Assembly (NCBI GenBank): GCA_016934855.1
Contig: JAFGSA010000046.1
Location: 26,848-90,847, forward strand
Length of the DNA: 64,000 nucleotides
Direction of reading: 5' to 3'
Origin: Elusimicrobiota bacterium
Lineage (GTDB): Bacteria > CG03 > SLGR01 > JAFGSA01
A program made the position numbers. This document shows positions 3,001 through 9,000 of the stretch, in pieces (position 1 is the stretch's first letter; each line of letters opens with the position of its first letter).

Positions 3001-6000
3001 TTATGCCTGAAAGCCCCGACCAGATCCCATGCGGGAACCGGGAGTATATCGAGATCATTTATCAGCTTGCGCGGTGCCGTTCTGCGTATTGCCCCTCCAT
3101 CTCTGAAGATAATCCCGTCTACCTTATCCAGGTCTTTTCTGCCGGACAACGCCTCCACCAGTTCGGCAAGCGCGATCTCCCCCTCGCCTATCACGCCTAT
3201 GTCAAAGCTCCAGAACCTTTTCATAGTGTCTTCCGGAAGCGAAGTTATATGCTGACCGCCGATCAGCATCGTGATATTACCGTTAGCGGTTTTTATCTTT
3301 TCCGCAATCGAAGCCGCTTTGTTGATAGAGAGGGTAGTCGCGGTAAACCCGACTATTTCGGGTTTCGCGCGCAGGACTTCTCTAACGACCGCGCCGGTGT
3401 CGTATCCCTGCGGCAGATCGTCTATTATCGCGACCGGGGTGCCGAGTTTCCTGAGATACGATGCCAGGTAGCAGAGCCCCAGCGGCTCCGTAAAACTGCC
3501 GGCGCCGGACAAACCGCTGTACCGGTCCTTCTGGGACAGGGAAGGATTGATAAGCAGTACCTTTACTTTTTCCACGGTGTTAAAAAGTGTTCTATCATTT
3601 TAATGCCGGATAACGATACTCCCGCAAACACGCGCATAACTGACGGTAAAAAATTTCAGCGGGCCTAGCGGATACCTTTTAATTATAGACGATATCACCC
3701 CATTTATCAAGAGAATCGACATATGCCTTTTCCATGGAGGCTCGCTTTCCGGACTCCGCATCACCCGAAGCCGGCCTTGTTCCGCGGCTGTATTTGATTT
3801 GGCCCTGCTTAATATATAGAATTGATATCGAATGAATAGAGGATTCGAACAATATCCCGAATATGCGTCATAAGAACCCCGGTAATATAATTACCCGCAT
3901 CCCGGGAACGATTGTTGTGTTTTCACTGCGTTTCAGCTGCTTTATCGCGGGCTGGACCGGACGCTTCATCATGCGTTACCTGGGTCCCGGGCAGAGAGCC
4001 GGCCTGCTGGCTGTCCTTGTCAGGATTGTGAGCCTGGGCATGAAAATACCGCAAGTCCACGAAGCGTATCACAGATTCCGCAAACACGGCGATCTGCCCG
4101 CCCGCAGATTCATACCCCTGTACCGTTCGCAGAATCCCGATACCGCGGGCGAAGACATCGTTCTCCTTTTTTCCGGCGGGAAAGATTCCACCTATGCTGC
4201 CTGGCTTCTTTCCTTTTATTTCAGGAAAGTGCATCTGCTGACTATGCGCCTGTTCAGTATAAGCGAATTCAAAAGATGCGAAATAAATGTACGCCGCCTG
4301 AAAGACGCGCGCGGCGAAAGTAAATTTTCACACCAGTATGCTGACGGAAACGCTCTTTTTGACGATCTGCATTTCAAACAGATGAAACTCAACCGGCGCC
4401 TGTTCGGCGGGACCGTCGAAGGGGCCGCCTGTATCTCGTGCCACCTTGCCGCCCAGACCCGGGCCGTCATATTCTGCAAAAAGAAAGGCGTGCGATGGAT
4501 CGCCCTGGGCTTCAGCCCCCTTTCTCACCGCTCTTTCGAACAGGGCCTGTCCGCGGCGAAGATGATAGAAAGATTCTTCTTCAGGTACGGCATATACCTT
4601 TCGCTGCCCCTGCTGGAAAGACCTTATGCCGACGCGGTTGAGGAATTATTCAATAACCGCGTGATCCCGCACAGAAAACTGGGGAAACCCTATCAGTTCG
4701 GGATGAAGAATTCAACGCAGGGCTCCTGCCCGTTCGGAATGTGGACCAATATTAATTTCACATGCCATGAGTTCTCGAGGGGATTTGACGATTACATTAA
4801 CACTGCGGCCAGGTTCCGCGCGCACCTCGAAAACCAGTGCGAAAAATATCTGCGAGAATGCTGCAATATCCTGCCCGAAAATGTCTTGCCGGAGAATGCC
4901 GGGCAGGCTGATATCTCATCCGAATAGGCTGCGTATTATCCAGCGCGGATAATTGCGCATATACATGAAATACCTGTAATCCCTTTTAATAAAAGCCGCT
5001 GTGACCTGAAGAGCCACGACAACGGGCCCGGGAATGAAGCGGAAAAACCTGTAAGTTCTGCTTGAGATTATGCCTTTTACCGTACTTTCAGGAAGCAACG
5101 GCATGATTTTGAACAGATTCTTGAAATTCCTGTTCATCTTTCGCATATCCGCGTTCTTCACCGAGTCTATATTAAGGAAATTCCCGGTCCTGCCGTTATC
5201 TATATCGACCAGGTCTTCCCTGGTTATCAAGCCGTTTTTTACCGCCGCGTCGTTGATCTCGAGTCTCGGGAAGAATGTCAGGTTATGGCATTTAATCCTG
5301 TTGAGCCGCCTGAGCCCCGAGTAGAACACCGCGGCACGGATATGATCCTCCTCTTTCTCCTGAGGCAGGCCGAACATGTGGTCTATGTCGTACTTTATGC
5401 CCATTTCGTCGCAGAGACGGAATGCTTTTTCCGCCTGGCTGTTGCTGCCCAGGCACCCCAGCACTTCTCTCCTTATAGTCTCGTTCAGGGTCTGCAGCCC
5501 GAATTCTACGGCGTAACAGCCGTTATTTTTCAGTAGAGCTGCGACTTCTTCGTCAAAAAAATACACATGCCCGAAACAGCGGAACGGGACGCCGATTTCC
5601 CTTCCGTATCTCTTCATCAATTCCCTGAGCCAGGTTTTGTCGTTGAAGAAGATAGAATCGATGAACCATATGGCTCTCAGGCGGTACCTGTCATTCGCGT
5701 ACCTTAATTCGCGCATGACGGAATCGACGCTTCTTCTCCTGTGATAGCCCCGGTATATCCTGTTCATATAGTTTTCGCAGCAGTAGGTACAGCTGCAGAT
5801 ACACCCCCTGTTCGTCAGCATCAGGTAATCCTCTGCATGGTTTGTCTTTCCTGCGAACAGCTCTTTATCCGGCAGCGGCAGACCGTCTATATCGCTGACC
5901 GGCGGTCTGCGTTCATTATGCCTGACGGTTCCGTTATTCTTATACCAGAGATTCTTTATATTCTCGTATGATCTGCCCGAAGATATGCACCCGGCAAGTT

Positions 6001-9000
6001 CCGCAAGCGCCGCTTCCCCTTCGCCCTCGATCACGAAATCAACCTCTTCATTGTTAATGACAGCTTCAGGGGCCATGGTCGCGTGTATCCCGCCGAAAAC
6101 CGTCCTGACAGGTCTTTTCTTTTTCACTTTTCCCGCGATATCCAGCGCCCATATGTAGGTGCCCGTGTAAACTGAAAAACAGACCAGATCAGGATTCGTG
6201 CGTTCGATTTCCGACACAACCCGCTGTCTCCTGTCAAGAATCCTTCCCGGCACGGGCATATAGAAGATGTTATCCGCTTTGCCGAACAGCCCGTAATCGG
6301 AAACGAGTTTCACTTCATGCCCCGCCTTCTTGAGCACGGCGGAGAGGTATTCTATACCGATATTCTCTCTTCCCTGATGGACAAAGGTTATACGCATTCT
6401 ATTTCCTGAAATAAGAGAACACCATTCCGGCGCCTTTCAGCGAGATACTGAGCTCCCTGGCAGGGGATCTGAAAATCTTTCTGATACGCTGGAGCATATA
6501 CCCCGGCCTGAAATAGAAACACCGGTACGCCTTCTTGAGCAAAGACACTATCTTGTCCGGCGGTATGCCGATGTCAAAAACCGGAGGTCCCTGGATCAGG
6601 TAATCCTCCCAGTTGATATTCAGGTCTTCTTCCGTTTTTACGAATTTGCTGAACAGCGGTGTGCCCGGGTACGCTTTACATATATAAAAAAGCGCGATAT
6701 CCGGAGATATCTCTTTCGCAAATTCTATGGTCCTTTCCATATCCTCTATAGTCTCGCCCGGGATACCTATAATAAAACTCGCCGAAGAATCCAGTCCTGC
6801 TTTCTTTGTCAGCCCCACGGCTTTTCGGGCCTGCTCTATGGTTATGTGCTTGTTTATTATATGCTGCGCCTTTTCGGTTCCCGCCTCTATACCGTAGGAT
6901 ACCTGGTGGCATCCCGCCCTTTTCATGAGTTTCAGTATTTCCAGGTCCACCGTATCAACCCTGCACAGGCAGACCCAGTGTATCTTTAATTTTCTATCCA
7001 GAATAAGCCGGCACAATTCTACGGCGGACTCACGGTCATAGCCGAAACAGTCATCCATGAACCTGAAATCCCTTATACCGTATCTTGCCACGCATTCCTC
7101 TATCTCTCCGACGACTTTTTCCGGTTTCCTCACATTATAACCCGGATGCACCGCGTGTATGGAACAGTAAGAACAACTGTAGGGGCACCCGATACTTGCC
7201 AGTATCGGCGTGCTCGGCAGAGTCATATATTTCTGCGGGTGCGGCGCATACAGGCTGAAATCAAGTTTTTCCCTGGCCGGCAGCGGAAGCTCATCCAGGG
7301 GAATATTCTCCTTTGCCGCGGGATTGACCCTGACGGTACCGTCTTTGCGGTACGCCAGACCGCGGATGTCCGCGTAATCCTTTCCCTGTTTAAGCCTCCC
7401 GATAAGCTCTGACAGCGGCCGCTCCCCCTGTCCGTGTACGAGAAAATCGAAATGGCTGAATTCCCGCAGTGTCTTCCCGGGGAGGACGGTGGCATGTATA
7501 CCGCCGACAACGGTGATTATGCCGGGATCTATTTTTTTCGAGTTTTCCGCTATCCTGTCGGCCATGACTATGTCAACGGTGAATGCCGAGACGCCCACGA
7601 ACTTCGGCTTATACCGCTTTATAGCATCGGCCAAGCTTACGAAACAGTCGTCGGATACGCTAAGATCCATTATCTCGGCGCTTATTTTCTGCTTTTCCAG
7701 ATATGCCGCAAGATAGGCTATACCAAGAGGAGCCTCTCTGCCCAGATACGGCACGCCGGGATCCTGGCGGTGCGGCGGCTGAACAAGCAGTATTTCTATC
7801 TCACCCATATGTCCGGCGCGTTTTTATACGGTATTTATACATATATTTTTGAGGATATCCACCTTCATGATGCGCGATGCATCATTTCTGATATTTTTGT
7901 AGTCTCACAATAGATTATAAATAATCGGGGTCTATTGTTCAATCGGCATACCCCTCCAGGCAGAGGGGTCTCAGGGCTGTTTTTCGGCCCTGCTTTCCGC
8001 ATTACAATTTTTTAGCGGGCATTCTTCCTTGGTAAAATGATCGGCAGGAGCAAGGAACCGCCGGACCTCTCCCGGCAAGGTATTATCAGAACATCGCATA
8101 TATAAAAGGCAGTTTCGCCGCATCCCCGCCCAGCAGCAGCAGAACGGCAAGCAGGACCGACAGAACGATTATCGGCGTAAGCCACCACCATTTGTTCTGT
8201 TTTATAAATTCCCGGATATTTTTCATTAACGGCTTCTTATTTAAAGTATTCATTTTCCGATATCCTATTGAAAATAGCACGCGCTACCAGTTTATTGGCT
8301 TTTTTATTCAAATGTACGTCTTCCGGCGACACCCACAGATCATGTTTCGGATTCTTTTTCAGAAAAGGGAGCAGGTCCAGGTATTCGGCATCAGGAAGGG
8401 ATAAAACCGTTTTTTCGATATATTTGTTTATATCGTTAAACGGATAATTCTCCAGTTCGTGAAGTTCCGGTATATTCACAAAAATCAGCGGTATCCGGCC
8501 GCACCGCGCGATATCCGCTATCTCTTTCAAACCTTTCTCAAACCTGTCTCTCAGTCGCGCATCCTTATACAGCGAACTATAGTATTCGCGGTAATCCAGG
8601 CCCCTGTTTTTCAGTTTCACCAATCTATCGTAACCGAACGGATAGATATAAAAATTCTTCTGGAACCAGTAGGCAGGACCTGAAGGATATCTTATCTCTT
8701 CAATGTCATTTATATAGAAATTCAGGATTATCATGTCCGGCTGCAGCTCCATGTTATTTTTTATCGCTTCCAGTTCGTTTTCGGTGCCGTAATTCCCGAC
8801 TCCCAGGTTAATAACTTCGAACCCGGCCGGATATTTTTCATTGAGCATCGCTTCCAATATCCGCGGGCAGGTATCTTCATGCCTCACCCCCCATCCCAGC
8901 GTAAGAGAATCCCCCGCCATAAGTATCCGCTTTATACCCGCGGCTTTCGGGATCTCGTATTCCCTGTCCGCTCTTATTCCCCGGGAGTTTATCCTTATAT

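What the first reader, a model, noticed from the sequence alone, without database searches (positions are those of the whole stretch)
4916..7808. B12-rSAM genes occur as tightly coupled tandem pairs of different subfamilies
- **The pairs.** Four pairs are adjacent on the same strand with gaps or overlaps of 1 to 8 nt: 6399..7808 + 4916..6397, 29499..30935 + 27997..29502, 40715..42151 + 39276..40718, and 54499..55893 + 52944..54506.
- **Subfamily pattern.** Two of the pairs combine an MRxxFV...GIEYLS-type member as the downstream partner with a different subfamily upstream. The pair 40715 + 39276 has both members in the MKIS(L/F)(I/V)F subfamily.
- **Inference.** This recurring pairing suggests either a hetero-oligomer or two consecutive radical steps on the same substrate, for example iterative methylation, or methylation plus epimerisation or ring contraction (compare HpnJ-type chemistry).
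Basis: inference. Interest (0 to 1): 0.6.

Follow-up and report, generated by a model that had tools for sequence, protein, structure and literature searches.

The report
Paired radical SAM genes, glycan island
Four back-to-back pairs of B12-type radical SAM enzyme genes sit in a large cell-surface sugar-modification island of an uncultured Elusimicrobia bacterium; their number is what chance predicts, but one pair belongs to an uncharacterised two-gene cassette that many anaerobic phyla keep together.

Summary
There are 17 genes with a B12-binding domain plus a radical SAM (rSAM) domain, and four same-strand pairs with junctions of +1, -4, -4 and -8 nt.

Within the window this is not enrichment. 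Shuffling gene labels gives 4.4 adjacent pairs on average, and tight junctions are the norm across the island.

A bootstrapped tree gives clade A (4916, 27997, 32860) and clade B (15291, 29499, 39276). Upstream and downstream partners do not form two clades.

Other genomes separate the four pairs:
- **29499→27997 (B2→A2):** conserved in 5 of 5 contexts examined.
- **B1→A1 (15291-type before 4916-type):** a paralogous cassette, adjacent in 28 of 54 genomes from at least six phyla. In this window those two genes lie 9 kb apart.
- **6399→4916 (the flagged pair):** a narrow alternative, seen again only in the closest relative.
- **40715→39276:** not conserved (0 of 4).
- **54499→52944:** no orthologues found.

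The context is envelope glycan synthesis: GT2 polyprenyl-phosphate sugar synthase-like genes, GT-C transferases, a YdjC deacetylase, a flippase-like protein and DegT aminotransferases. Clade-B rSAM–GT2 fusion proteins exist elsewhere.

The likeliest mechanism is consecutive radical tailoring of a lipid-linked sugar. A B–A heterodimer is not excluded.

The parts
4916..6397 (-). Clade A1 B12-binding rSAM gene; downstream member of the flagged pair
   Evidence: It has PF02310 plus PF04055 and the motif CICSCTYC at residue 199. Orthologues are 45-58% identical across phyla. Clade A has 100% bootstrap support. The AF2 model has pLDDT 93.7 and a class-B rSAM fold.
6399..7808 (-). Unclassified B12-rSAM gene; upstream member of the flagged pair
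   Evidence: Domains are shown. It falls in no supported clade. A 61.5%-identical gene fragment ends 2 nt upstream of the closest 4916 relative in L098. A 54%-identical gene lies two genes from the A1 gene in L023.
15291..16775 (-). Clade B1 B12-rSAM gene; orthologue of the usual upstream partner of 4916-type genes, here unlinked by about 9 kb
   Evidence: It is 57-71% identical to the gene directly upstream of A1 in 28 of 54 loci. Its closest solved relative by sequence is AprD4, 6FD2, E = 6e-25.
14546..15298 (+). GT2 glycosyltransferase that abuts the B1 gene convergently
   Evidence: It matches PF00535. Its best NCBIfam hits are AglJ and ArnC, far below cutoff. It is the best window match (33-40% identity) to the GT2 half of the natural clade-B rSAM-GT2 fusions P0361 and P0364.
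29499..30935 (-). Clade B2 B12-rSAM gene; upstream member of the conserved B2→A2 cassette
   Evidence: Orthologues at 53-69% identity sit directly upstream of 27997 orthologues in 5 of 5 contexts.
27997..29502 (-). Clade A2 B12-rSAM gene; downstream member of the conserved B2→A2 cassette
   Evidence: Domains are shown. It is 100% identical to an NCBI protein of an Elusimicrobia metagenome-assembled genome (MAG), and orthologues are 45-52% identical.
30999..32717 (-). GT-C (PMT_2) membrane glycosyltransferase at the head of the B2→A2 operon
   Evidence: It matches PF13231. The same PMT_2→B2→A2 order occurs in Elusimicrobiota locus L082.
32860..34326 (+). Clade A3 B12-rSAM gene; first gene of an operon with a GT2, a clade-C rSAM and a flippase-like gene
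34391..35122 (+). GT2, polyprenyl-phosphate sugar synthase-like
   Evidence: It matches PF00535 at 113 bits. Its best NCBIfam hits are PgfS, EpsD, AglJ, TuaG, dolichyl-P hexose transferase and ArnC, all below cutoff.
35133..36551 (+). Clade C B12-rSAM gene
   Evidence: It is 39% identical to 2121, and the clade has 96% bootstrap support. Its best NCBIfam hit is HpnJ at 172 bits against a cutoff of 577.6.
36592..37602 (+). Flippase-like membrane protein (LPG_synthase_TM / TIGR00374)
   Evidence: It scores 152 bits against PF03706 and 76.8 bits against TIGR00374 (cutoff 43.2). The same family follows the B→A cassette in many other genomes.
39276..40718 (-). Clade B3 B12-rSAM gene; downstream member of pair 3
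   Evidence: Clade B has 99% bootstrap support. Orthologues at 50-60% identity include cultured Geobacter sp. AOG1. In 4 of 4 contexts no B12-rSAM gene is adjacent. For the AF2 model the top structural match is AprD4.
40715..42151 (-). Unclassified B12-rSAM gene; upstream member of pair 3
52944..54506 (-). Unclassified B12-rSAM gene; downstream member of pair 4
   Evidence: Domains are shown. The metagenome scan found only 25-28% relatives.
54499..55893 (-). Unclassified B12-rSAM gene; upstream member of pair 4
   Evidence: Domains are shown. It is 38% identical to the C-terminal half of the natural double-rSAM fusion P0405. The N-terminal half of that fusion best matches 50835 and 52944.
2121..3575 (-). 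Clade C B12-rSAM gene, not paired
10962..12419 (+). B12-rSAM gene, not paired
22266..23720 (+). B12-rSAM gene, not paired, lying between a GT-C gene and an SGNH-TPR gene; its B12 domain is below the Pfam threshold
46211..47674 (-). B12-rSAM gene, not paired, downstream of the small rSAM gene 47740
47740..48864 (-). Small rSAM gene without a B12 domain
   Evidence: PF04055 at 68.8 bits. A related small rSAM class follows the B→A cassette elsewhere.
50835..52253 (-). B12-rSAM gene in the same operon as pair 4, separated from it by GT2 52231-52968
60664..62259 (-). B12-rSAM gene with a C-terminal TPR, upstream of the YdjC gene
   Evidence: Domains are shown. The best NCBIfam hit is rSAM_ocin_1 at 155 bits against a cutoff of 281.85.
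59819..60667 (-). YdjC-family carbohydrate deacetylase (HpnK-like)
   Evidence: PF04794 at 210 bits. HpnK TIGR03473 scores 194.8 bits against a cutoff of 232.6.

Best explanation
The window is part of an envelope-glycan tailoring island of at least about 85 kb in an uncultured Elusimicrobia bacterium.

Its repeating parts:
- Small GT2 enzymes that resemble polyprenyl-phosphate sugar synthases.
- GT-C (PMT_2/ArnT-like) membrane transferases.
- A flippase-like membrane protein.
- YdjC and DegT sugar-modifying enzymes.
- Membrane-anchored SGNH-TPR proteins.
- 17 deeply diverged class-B (B12-domain) radical SAM paralogues, 20-46% identical to one another.

In so dense an array, four adjacent rSAM pairs are what chance gives. 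The four pairs are not equivalent.
- 29499→27997 is a copy of an ancient two-gene cassette with a clade-B gene directly upstream of a clade-A gene. The cassette exists in at least two co-duplicated versions, B1→A1 and B2→A2. It is kept adjacent in many anaerobic phyla, usually followed by a small rSAM gene and either a flippase-like protein or a polysaccharide deacetylase.
- 6399→4916 is a lineage-restricted re-pairing of the A1 gene.
- 40715→39276 is an incidental adjacency.
- 54499→52944 is unresolved.

Inferred mechanism: the cytoplasmic rSAM enzymes act one after another on the same sugar while it is carried on polyprenyl phosphate. The chemistry could be C-methylation, deoxygenation or ring rearrangement. 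The product is then flipped and transferred by a GT-C enzyme to an envelope acceptor.

Shown: the gene content, the clades, the cross-genome adjacency and the fusions. Inferred: the substrate, the order of steps and the chemistry.
For: - **Domains.**
- **Source organism.** 27997 and 39276 are 100% identical to proteins of an Elusimicrobia MAG on a 172-kb contig.
- **Chance-level adjacency.**
- **Clades.** A at 100%, B at 99% and C at 96% bootstrap, with mirrored A and B topologies.
- **B1→A1.** Adjacent in 28 of 54 loci, and a B1 gene lies within 10 kb in 36 of 54. The loci come from Desulfobacterota, Omnitrophota, Elusimicrobiota, Planctomycetota, Chloroflexota and Kiritimatiellae. P is about 2e-23.
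- **B2→A2.** Adjacent in 5 of 5 contexts, including a Patescibacteria genome.
- **Modal order elsewhere.** B, then A, then a small rSAM and LPG_synthase_TM in either order, then a third rSAM.
- **Glycan context.**
  - B3 orthologues sit between NDP-sugar epimerase/dehydratase genes and GT2-methyltransferase genes, near Wzm/Wzt transporter genes, GT9 and AsnB.
  - A2 cassettes sit next to PMT_2, Polysacc_deac_1, DUF2079 and carbamoyltransferase genes.
- **Fusions.**
  - Clade-B rSAM-GT2 fusions P0361 and P0364 exist, and their GT2 half best matches window GT2 14546, the neighbour of B1.
  - P0429 fuses rSAM modules to GT4/GT1 domains.
  - Multi-rSAM single polypeptides exist: P0405, P0467, P0425 and P0463.
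- **GT2 type.** The window GT2s hit AglJ, ArnC, PpgS, PgfS and dolichyl-P hexose transferase among their best NCBIfam matches.
- **Nearest structure.** For clade B it is the sugar diol-dehydratase AprD4.
- **Parts analogy.** The parts match the HpnI/J/K/L set.
Against: - No substrate or product is known.
- Every curated family match is far below its cutoff, so the chemistry is open.
- One third of A1 loci have no B1 gene within 10 kb, and B3 works without any A partner. The coupling is therefore frequent but not obligatory.
- In this very window B1 and A1 are separated.
- No B-A fusion protein was seen.
- The many TPR domains and rSAM/SPASM genes would also fit protein or peptide substrates.
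- Gene maps of the 80 loci come from my own ORF caller plus blastp, not curated annotation.
Confidence: 0.55

Rival explanations
1. Obligate two-subunit enzyme: the clade-B and clade-A proteins form a stable heterodimer that performs one transformation, for example with one subunit catalytic and the other presenting substrate or cofactor.
For: - Gene order and tight or overlapping junctions are conserved. Gaps are -13 to +20 nt in 17 of the 31 adjacent B1→A1 junctions listed and -4 to +15 nt in four of the five B2→A2 contexts; the fifth, L099, has an 81-nt gap.
- Co-duplication has produced mirrored topologies.
- Natural polypeptides with two to five rSAM modules (up to four with a B12 domain) show that such modules can work while physically joined.
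Against: - Both partners keep a complete CxxxCxxC motif and a GGxH B12-domain motif, so neither looks like a dead subunit.
- 18 of 54 A1 loci have no B1 gene nearby.
- In the window B1 and A1 are 9 kb apart in different operons.
- No B-A fusion appears among about 500 listed relatives.
- Multimer prediction and co-purification could not be run.
Confidence: 0.2
2. Pure bystander adjacency: all rSAM-rSAM neighbours, including B→A, are independent tailoring enzymes. They travel together only because the whole glycan cluster is inherited or transferred as a block.
For: - Adjacency in the window is at chance level.
- Pair 3 is not conserved.
- Paralogue order varies between genomes: L058 and L075 have A before B.
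Against: - B→A stays adjacent while the flanking genes differ widely across phyla.
- Two paralogous versions keep the same order.
- The chance probability of the observed adjacency is about 2e-23.
Confidence: 0.15
3. The rSAM enzymes tailor soluble nucleotide-sugars, as AprD4/GenK-type enzymes do. The chemistry would be radical deoxygenation or C-methylation before any transfer to lipid. The pairs would be consecutive steps of a deoxy- or branched-sugar pathway.
For: - AprD4 is the nearest solved relative of clade B.
- B3 orthologues lie directly after SDR-type NDP-sugar epimerase/dehydratase/reductase genes.
- DegT aminotransferases lie in the island.
Against: - Clade-B rSAM is fused to a polyprenyl-phosphate-type GT2.
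- The cassette is linked to a flippase-like protein and to GT-C enzymes.
- The best curated hits are to HpnJ, which acts on a lipid-linked sugar.
Confidence: 0.2
4. The substrates are not sugars. They would be peptides or proteins (RiPP-like iterative C-methylation, PoyB/PoyC style) or lipid chains (Grs/Hgm style).
For: - 60664 scores best against RiPP C-methyltransferase models.
- TPR domains are abundant, and six rSAM/SPASM genes lie next to the window.
- GrsA/GrsB and Gms/Gmm are precedents for paired rSAM enzymes that act on lipids.
Against: - No plausible precursor-peptide ORF lies in the larger intergenic gaps.
- All scores are below RiPP, ladderane, HpnR and other curated cutoffs.
- Neighbours in other genomes are glycan genes.
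- The cassette occurs in Patescibacteria and DPANN genomes. From general knowledge, these groups mostly lack their own lipid synthesis.
Confidence: 0.1

Closest known systems
HpnI-HpnJ-HpnK-HpnL of hopanoid side-chain tailoring (Burkholderia, Methylobacterium)
   Same: The parts list matches: a GT2, a B12-domain rSAM, a YdjC deacetylase and a flippase-like UPF0104 membrane protein. HpnJ is the best or near-best curated hit for most of the 17 copies, and HpnK is the best hit for 59819.
   Different: - Scores are 96-187 bits against the HpnJ cutoff of 577.6.
- No hopanoid genes were seen among the genes in the window.
- GT-C transferases and SGNH-TPR proteins are added.
- There are many rSAM genes, not one.
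- HpnJ is not described as working with a second rSAM.
GrsA/GrsB GDGT ring synthases, and the Gms/Gmm pair, of archaeal lipids
   Same: These are diverged rSAM enzymes acting one after another on one substrate. The second enzyme prefers the product of the first.
   Different: They act on isoprenoid chains, not in a glycan context. GrsA and GrsB are encoded at separate loci (saci_1585 and saci_0240). They are not sequence orthologues of clades A or B.
AprD4 (with its reductase AprD3), the radical SAM 1,2-diol dehydratase of apramycin biosynthesis, PDB 6FD2
   Same: It is the nearest solved relative of clade B: E = 6e-25 by sequence and TM 0.69-0.76 by fold. It acts on a sugar ring.
   Different: Identity is only 19-21%. 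The NF033070 score is at most 129 bits against a cutoff of 500. AprD4 does not bind cobalamin. Its partner is an SDR reductase, not a second rSAM.
Arn/Gtr-type three-component glycosylation (GT2 polyprenyl-phosphate sugar synthase, flippase, GT-C transferase)
   Same: GT2s resembling ArnC and AglJ, a flippase-like protein and PMT_2/ArnT-like GT-C genes recur through the island.
   Different: Known systems do not include radical SAM tailoring of the lipid-linked sugar. All GT2 scores are far below the curated cutoffs.
Clusters with several class-B rSAM methylases in natural-product biosynthesis (ThnK/L/P, PoyB/C, BotRMT1-3, BchQ/R, GenK/GenD1)
   Same: Several diverged B12-rSAM paralogues in one cluster each do one tailoring step. 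The fold is shared with TokK, CysS and TsrM.
   Different: There is no scaffold synthase or precursor peptide here. The context is envelope glycan synthesis. The B→A cassette is conserved across phyla rather than confined to one pathway.

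Membership tests
Class-B (cobalamin-domain) radical SAM superfamily | N-terminal Rossmann-type B12-binding domain (PF02310) followed by a radical SAM core (PF04055) | tested here: met
   All 17 copies have both domains. In 16 of 17 both domains score above the Pfam thresholds; in 22266 the B12 domain scores 23.9 bits against 32.1. AF2 models of 4916 and 39276 superpose on TsrM, TokK, CysS, OxsB and AprD4 with TM 0.6-0.76.
Class-B (cobalamin-domain) radical SAM superfamily | CxxxCxxC motif for the [4Fe-4S] cluster | tested here: met
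   The motif is present in all 17 copies at residues 199-242. It is invariant in the orthologue alignments.
Class-B (cobalamin-domain) radical SAM superfamily | Actual binding and use of cobalamin | not testable with these tools
   AprD4, the nearest solved relative of clade B, has the domain but binds no cobalamin. Spectroscopy or cofactor analysis is needed.
HpnJ (TIGR03471, hopanoid cyclitol-ether rSAM) | Score at or above the curated equivalog cutoff of 577.6 bits | tested here: not met
   The 17 copies score 96-187 bits.
HpnJ (TIGR03471, hopanoid cyclitol-ether rSAM) | Located in a hopanoid gene cluster (shc, hpnH, hpnG) | tested here: not met
   Pfam domains of the 46 window genes include no squalene-hopene cyclase and no HpnH-type or HpnG-type gene.
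BchE (TIGR02026) | Score at or above 481.35 bits | tested here: not met
   The best score is 187.5 bits, for 6399.
AprD4-family diol dehydratase (NF033070) | Score at or above 500 bits | tested here: not met
   The best score is 129 bits, for 52944; clade B scores 102-111 bits.
RiPP rSAM C-methyltransferases (TIGR03975 rSAM_ocin_1, NF050148 ApyD) | Score at or above the cutoff (281.85 and 750 bits), plus an adjacent precursor peptide | tested here: not met
   The best scores are 155 bits (60664, TIGR03975) and 184 bits (6399, ApyD). No convincing small precursor ORF lies in the intergenic gaps.
Ladderane-type lipid B12-rSAM (TIGR04072) | Score at or above 360 bits | tested here: not met
   The best score is 141 bits, for 52944.
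HpnK (TIGR03473), tested for 59819-60667 | Score at or above 232.6 bits | tested here: not met
   The score is 194.8 bits over the full length, close to but below the cutoff. YdjC family membership (PF04794, 210 bits) is met.
Conserved clade-B→clade-A rSAM cassette (defined in this report) | A clade-B gene immediately upstream, on the same strand, of a clade-A gene | tested here: met
   The feature is met by 29499→27997. It is not met by 6399→4916, 40715→39276 or 54499→52944. The other clade A and B genes of the window (4916, 15291, 32860, 39276) are not adjacent to their counterparts.

The most novel reading that the evidence does not exclude
Clade-B and clade-A proteins are the two subunits, or two obligately channelled steps, of a previously unknown radical enzyme system. 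It would convert a polyprenyl-phosphate-linked amino sugar into a new carbocyclic, branched or deoxy head group. That product would then be flipped and installed on the envelope by GT-C transferases. The pathway would be shared by many anaerobic phyla, including Patescibacteria and DPANN archaea, and in this Elusimicrobia genome it would have expanded into some twenty paralogous tailoring enzymes.
Probability: 0.15. Interest if true: 0.75.

Novelty: new variant of a known kind. Interest (0 to 1): 0.5.

Why it matters
Class-B radical SAM enzymes are one of the largest enzyme groups with mostly unknown functions. The 15291 query alone has 7,368 representative clusters at E ≤ 1e-30.

This work picks out of that mass one specific, testable unit. 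It is a B→A gene cassette kept together across at least six phyla, tied by gene fusion and neighbourhood to lipid-linked sugar synthesis.

If the inferred role holds, radical chemistry on polyprenyl-phosphate sugars would be a widespread and undescribed way for anaerobes to diversify their surfaces. A clade-B orthologue in cultured Geobacter sp. AOG1 offers a cultured organism in which to test this.

The flagged pair is not the conserved one, and pairing inside the window is at chance level.

Tried and rejected
- **Enrichment of pairs within the window.** Rejected by permutation.
- **Upstream and downstream partners as two clades.** Rejected by the bootstrapped tree.
- **Membership of any curated rSAM family** (HpnJ, BchE, ApyD, PhpK, HpnR, ladderane, AprD4, RiPP methylases). 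All 17 copies score below cutoff.
- **Orthologues of 52944.** The single-protein metagenome scan returned only 25-28% relatives, so pair 4 could not be tested.
- **B-A fusion proteins as evidence of interaction.** None was found among the listed relatives by length. Other fusions were found instead.
- **Cobalamin riboswitch or any Rfam family in the window.** None.
- **RiPP precursor peptides in the larger intergenic gaps.** None convincing.
- **Link to the Elusimicrobia nitrogenase-paralogue, rSAM-rich loci described by Méheust et al.** The paper was read. The window has no Nif-like gene, so this is a different locus type.
- **Promoter and terminator scan around the flagged pair.** There is one 10-of-12 sigma-70-like site upstream of 6399, but overall counts are at shuffle level, so this is weak evidence only.
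- **Literature.** Searches for B12-rSAM in glycan clusters of these phyla found nothing that describes this cassette.
- **Multimer structure prediction.** Not available with these tools.

Full report
**1. What is in the window**

ORF listing and Pfam scans show one continuous island of 46 genes, most on the minus strand.
- Seventeen genes encode a B12-binding domain (PF02310) followed by a radical SAM (rSAM) core (PF04055), with CxxxCxxC at residues 199-242.
- Five genes are clear PMT_2/ArnT-like GT-C membrane glycosyltransferases (20512, 30999, 37615, 42297, 55900). Two further large membrane proteins of unknown family are 614 and 16868.
- Four genes are small GT2 glycosyltransferases (14546, 34391, 43996, 52231).
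- Ten genes are SGNH/GDSL proteins, eight of which also have TPR-family matches; most have an N-terminal hydrophobic stretch.
- Single or double copies: two DegT aminotransferases, a YdjC deacetylase, an asparagine-synthase-like amidotransferase, a flippase-like LPG_synthase_TM protein and one small rSAM.

Two window proteins are 100% identical to NCBI proteins of an Elusimicrobia metagenome-assembled genome (MAG) on a 172-kb contig. The island continues beyond both ends of the window. There are two more B12-rSAM genes on the left (L001) and six tandem small rSAM genes, four with a SPASM match, on the right (L097).

**2. The observation**

Junctions are +1, -4, -4 and -8 nt, and two of them are ATGA overlaps.

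The pairing is not more than chance. Shuffling the 46 gene labels over the real positions and strands gives 4.36 ± 1.55 same-strand adjacent rSAM pairs against 4 observed (P of at least 4 = 0.70). Of the other 29 same-strand junctions, 66% are also 10 nt or less.

**3. Subfamilies**

The 17 paralogues are only 20-46% identical to one another. A neighbour-joining tree with 100 bootstraps, built with representatives from other genomes, gives three supported clades:
- Clade A: 4916, 27997, 32860 (100%).
- Clade B: 15291, 29499, 39276 (99%).
- Clade C: 2121, 35133 (96%).

Everything else is unresolved. The upstream and downstream partners of the four pairs do not form two clades.

**4. Evidence from other genomes**

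*Clade A1 (4916).* Its orthologues are 45-58% identical, which is closer than any in-window paralogue. One scan of GTDB species genomes fetched 80 loci, which I mapped with my own ORF caller plus blastp against the window proteins.
- In 28 of 54 loci with enough upstream sequence, the gene directly upstream on the same strand is 57-71% identical to window gene 15291 (clade B1).
- A B1 gene lies somewhere in the locus in 36 of 54.
- B1 genes make up 4.6% of all mapped genes, so the chance probability is about 2e-23.
- The loci come from Desulfobacterota, Omnitrophota, Elusimicrobiota, Planctomycetota, Chloroflexota and Kiritimatiellae.
- None has a 6399-type gene in that position.

*Clade A2 (27997).* All five contexts read have a 29499 orthologue (53-69% identical) immediately upstream. 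They come from Elusimicrobiota, Omnitrophota and Patescibacteria.

Two paralogous cassettes therefore exist, B1→A1 and B2→A2. The clade topologies mirror each other, ((A1,A2),A3) and ((B1,B2),B3). That is the pattern expected if a B-A gene pair duplicated as a unit.

*The window itself.* B2→A2 is intact. B1 (15291) and A1 (4916) lie 9 kb apart in different operons. A3 (32860) and B3 (39276) sit in convergent operons 5 kb apart.

*The flagged pair.* The closest known relative of 4916 (58% identical, contig L098) has a gene fragment 61.5% identical to 6399 ending 2 nt upstream. Omnitrophota locus L023 has a 54%-identical 6399-type gene two genes away. So 6399→4916 is a real but narrowly distributed alternative pairing.

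*Pair 3.* Orthologues of 39276 (55-60% identical) were read in Geobacter sp. AOG1, an Elusimicrobia MAG, a Planctomycetaceae MAG and one unnamed contig. None has a B12-rSAM gene adjacent, and none has a clade-A or 40715-type gene within 8-10 kb.

**5. What the system is**

*Neighbours of the cassette in other genomes.*
- The modal order is B, A, then a small rSAM and a flippase-like LPG_synthase_TM protein in either order, then a third B12-rSAM. SGNH-TPR, GT9 and PMT_2 genes lie around it.
- The A2 version is followed by a small rSAM in four of the five contexts, with a NodB-type polysaccharide deacetylase next to the cassette in all five. PMT_2, DUF2079, carbamoyltransferase and GT2 genes are nearby.
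- B3 orthologues lie between SDR-type NDP-sugar epimerase/dehydratase genes and GT2-methyltransferase fusions, close to Wzm/Wzt ABC transporter genes, GT9, AsnB and a sulfotransferase. This is an O-antigen-like setting.

*GT2 type.* The four window GT2s hit polyprenyl-phosphate sugar synthases among their best NCBIfam matches (AglJ, ArnC, PgfS, PpgS, dolichyl-P hexose transferase), though far below cutoff.

*Natural fusions found with 15291 as query.*
- Two proteins fuse a clade-B rSAM (42-48% identical to 15291 and 29499) to a GT2. The best window match of that GT2 half is 14546, the gene that abuts 15291 in the window.
- One 2,633-aa protein joins two rSAM modules (one with a recognisable B12 domain) to GT4/GT1 domains and a TPR.
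- Single polypeptides carry two B12-rSAM modules, or a SPASM rSAM plus four B12-rSAM modules. One of them, P0405, joins 50835/52944-like and 54499-like halves. Those are the gene types of pair 4 and its operon, although identity is only 31-38%.

These results tie the rSAM enzymes to glycosyltransferases. They also show that several such modules can work on one substrate while physically linked.

**6. Closest known enzymes**

No copy reaches any curated NCBIfam cutoff. The best hits are HpnJ, BchE and ApyD at 96-188 bits against cutoffs of 481-750. YdjC gene 59819 scores 194.8 bits against the HpnK cutoff of 232.6.

By sequence, clade B is nearest to the sugar diol-dehydratase AprD4 (E = 6e-25), and clade A is nearest to TsrM (5e-10).

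The AF2 models are confident, with pLDDT 93.7 for 4916 and 89.1 for 39276. They have the class-B fold, with TM 0.6-0.76 to TsrM, MgmA, CysS, AprD4, OxsB and TokK. The fold does not settle the chemistry. AprD4 itself binds no cobalamin.

The best system-level analogy is the hopanoid set HpnI (GT2), HpnK (YdjC deacetylase), HpnJ (B12-domain rSAM proposed to contract the glucosamine ring) and HpnL (flippase-like). Here that set is combined with Arn/Gtr-type GT2-flippase-GT-C glycosylation. GrsA/GrsB and Gms/Gmm are precedents for rSAM enzymes acting in sequence on one substrate.

**7. Most likely mechanism**

*Inferred steps.* A GT2 loads a sugar onto polyprenyl phosphate on the cytoplasmic face. 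A deacetylase or aminotransferase and the rSAM enzymes tailor it there. The clade-B and clade-A enzymes take consecutive steps on the same intermediate. The product is flipped, and a GT-C enzyme transfers it to an envelope acceptor. SGNH-TPR proteins may modify it further outside the cell.

*What is shown and what is open.* Gene content, clades, conserved adjacency and fusions are shown. Substrate, step order and chemistry are inferred. A B-A heterodimer remains possible. Arguments against it:
- Both partners keep all catalytic motifs.
- One third of A1 genes lack a nearby B1 gene.
- No B-A fusion was seen.

**8. Verdict**

It is weak for the flagged pair, wrong for pair 3 and open for pair 4.

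The genes are new subfamilies of a known superfamily, arranged in a variant of known lipid-linked sugar pathways.

Noticed in passing
L097 1-9996 (the sequence immediately to the right of window position 64000, same contig): Six more radical SAM genes without a B12 domain stand in tandem (625, 355, 286, 316, 350 and 551 aa); four have a SPASM match. Two of the six have TPR repeats. A TPR protein and further SGNH genes follow. The rSAM-rich island therefore extends well beyond the window.
   Followed up: partly
L001 8263-11136 (to the left of window position 1): Two further B12-type rSAM genes (483 and 472 aa) and a GT-C-like gene lie there. The 472-aa protein is 34% identical to clade-C gene 35133.
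   Followed up: partly
window 8086-8226 (-) and about 25045-25170 (-): Two small ORFs encode similar single-pass membrane peptides (…KxWW(W/L)LxP…LP(F/A)IYAxF-stop). Each lies directly downstream of an SGNH gene (8237-9211 and 25242-26753). They were not in my 46-gene list.
   Followed up: no
P0425 and P0463 (2,279 and 2,331 aa): These giant single polypeptides carry an N-terminal SPASM rSAM followed by four B12-rSAM modules. Each module best matches window gene 60664 (30-32% identity).
   Followed up: partly
P0361 and P0364; window 14546-16775: Clade-B rSAM is naturally fused to a GT2 in other organisms. The window's closest GT2 (14546-15298, + strand) overlaps the 3' end of clade-B gene 15291-16775 (- strand) by 8 nt.
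   Followed up: yes
L093 (Geobacter sp. AOG1, GCA_019972315.1, 356255-377694): A 55%-identical orthologue of 39276 occurs in a cultured Geobacter. It is flanked by TPR proteins, two rSAM/SPASM genes and a GT9 gene, between giant multihaem cytochrome genes. This offers a cultured organism for testing clade B.
   Followed up: partly
window: 8237, 9221, 18481, 23713, 25242, 44769, 49323, 58944, 62256 and 63319 (gene start coordinates): Ten SGNH/GDSL paralogues are present. Eight also have TPR-family matches, and most have an N-terminal hydrophobic stretch. SGNH-TPR genes also flank the B→A cassette in many other genomes. Their role is unknown.
   Followed up: no
window 3863-4927 (+): This lone plus-strand gene of 354 aa overlaps the 3' end of 4916 by 12 nt. 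It has only weak hits to DUF7411 and PRK14561, both limited to roughly residues 99-137. A 23%-identical homologue sits near an A1 gene in L028.
   Followed up: no
window 16868-18565 (-) and 52944-54566 (-): The longest-ORF starts (TTG and GTG) overlap the upstream genes by 85 and 68 nt. Internal starts are more likely. For 27997, NCBI annotates a start 3 codons further in.
   Followed up: partly
L086 12853-16597 (Patescibacteria): Two Peptidase_U32-family genes flank a B12-rSAM gene next to the B2→A2 cassette. From general knowledge, this family includes O2-independent hydroxylases such as UbiU/UbiV, which hints at further anaerobic oxidative tailoring.
   Followed up: no
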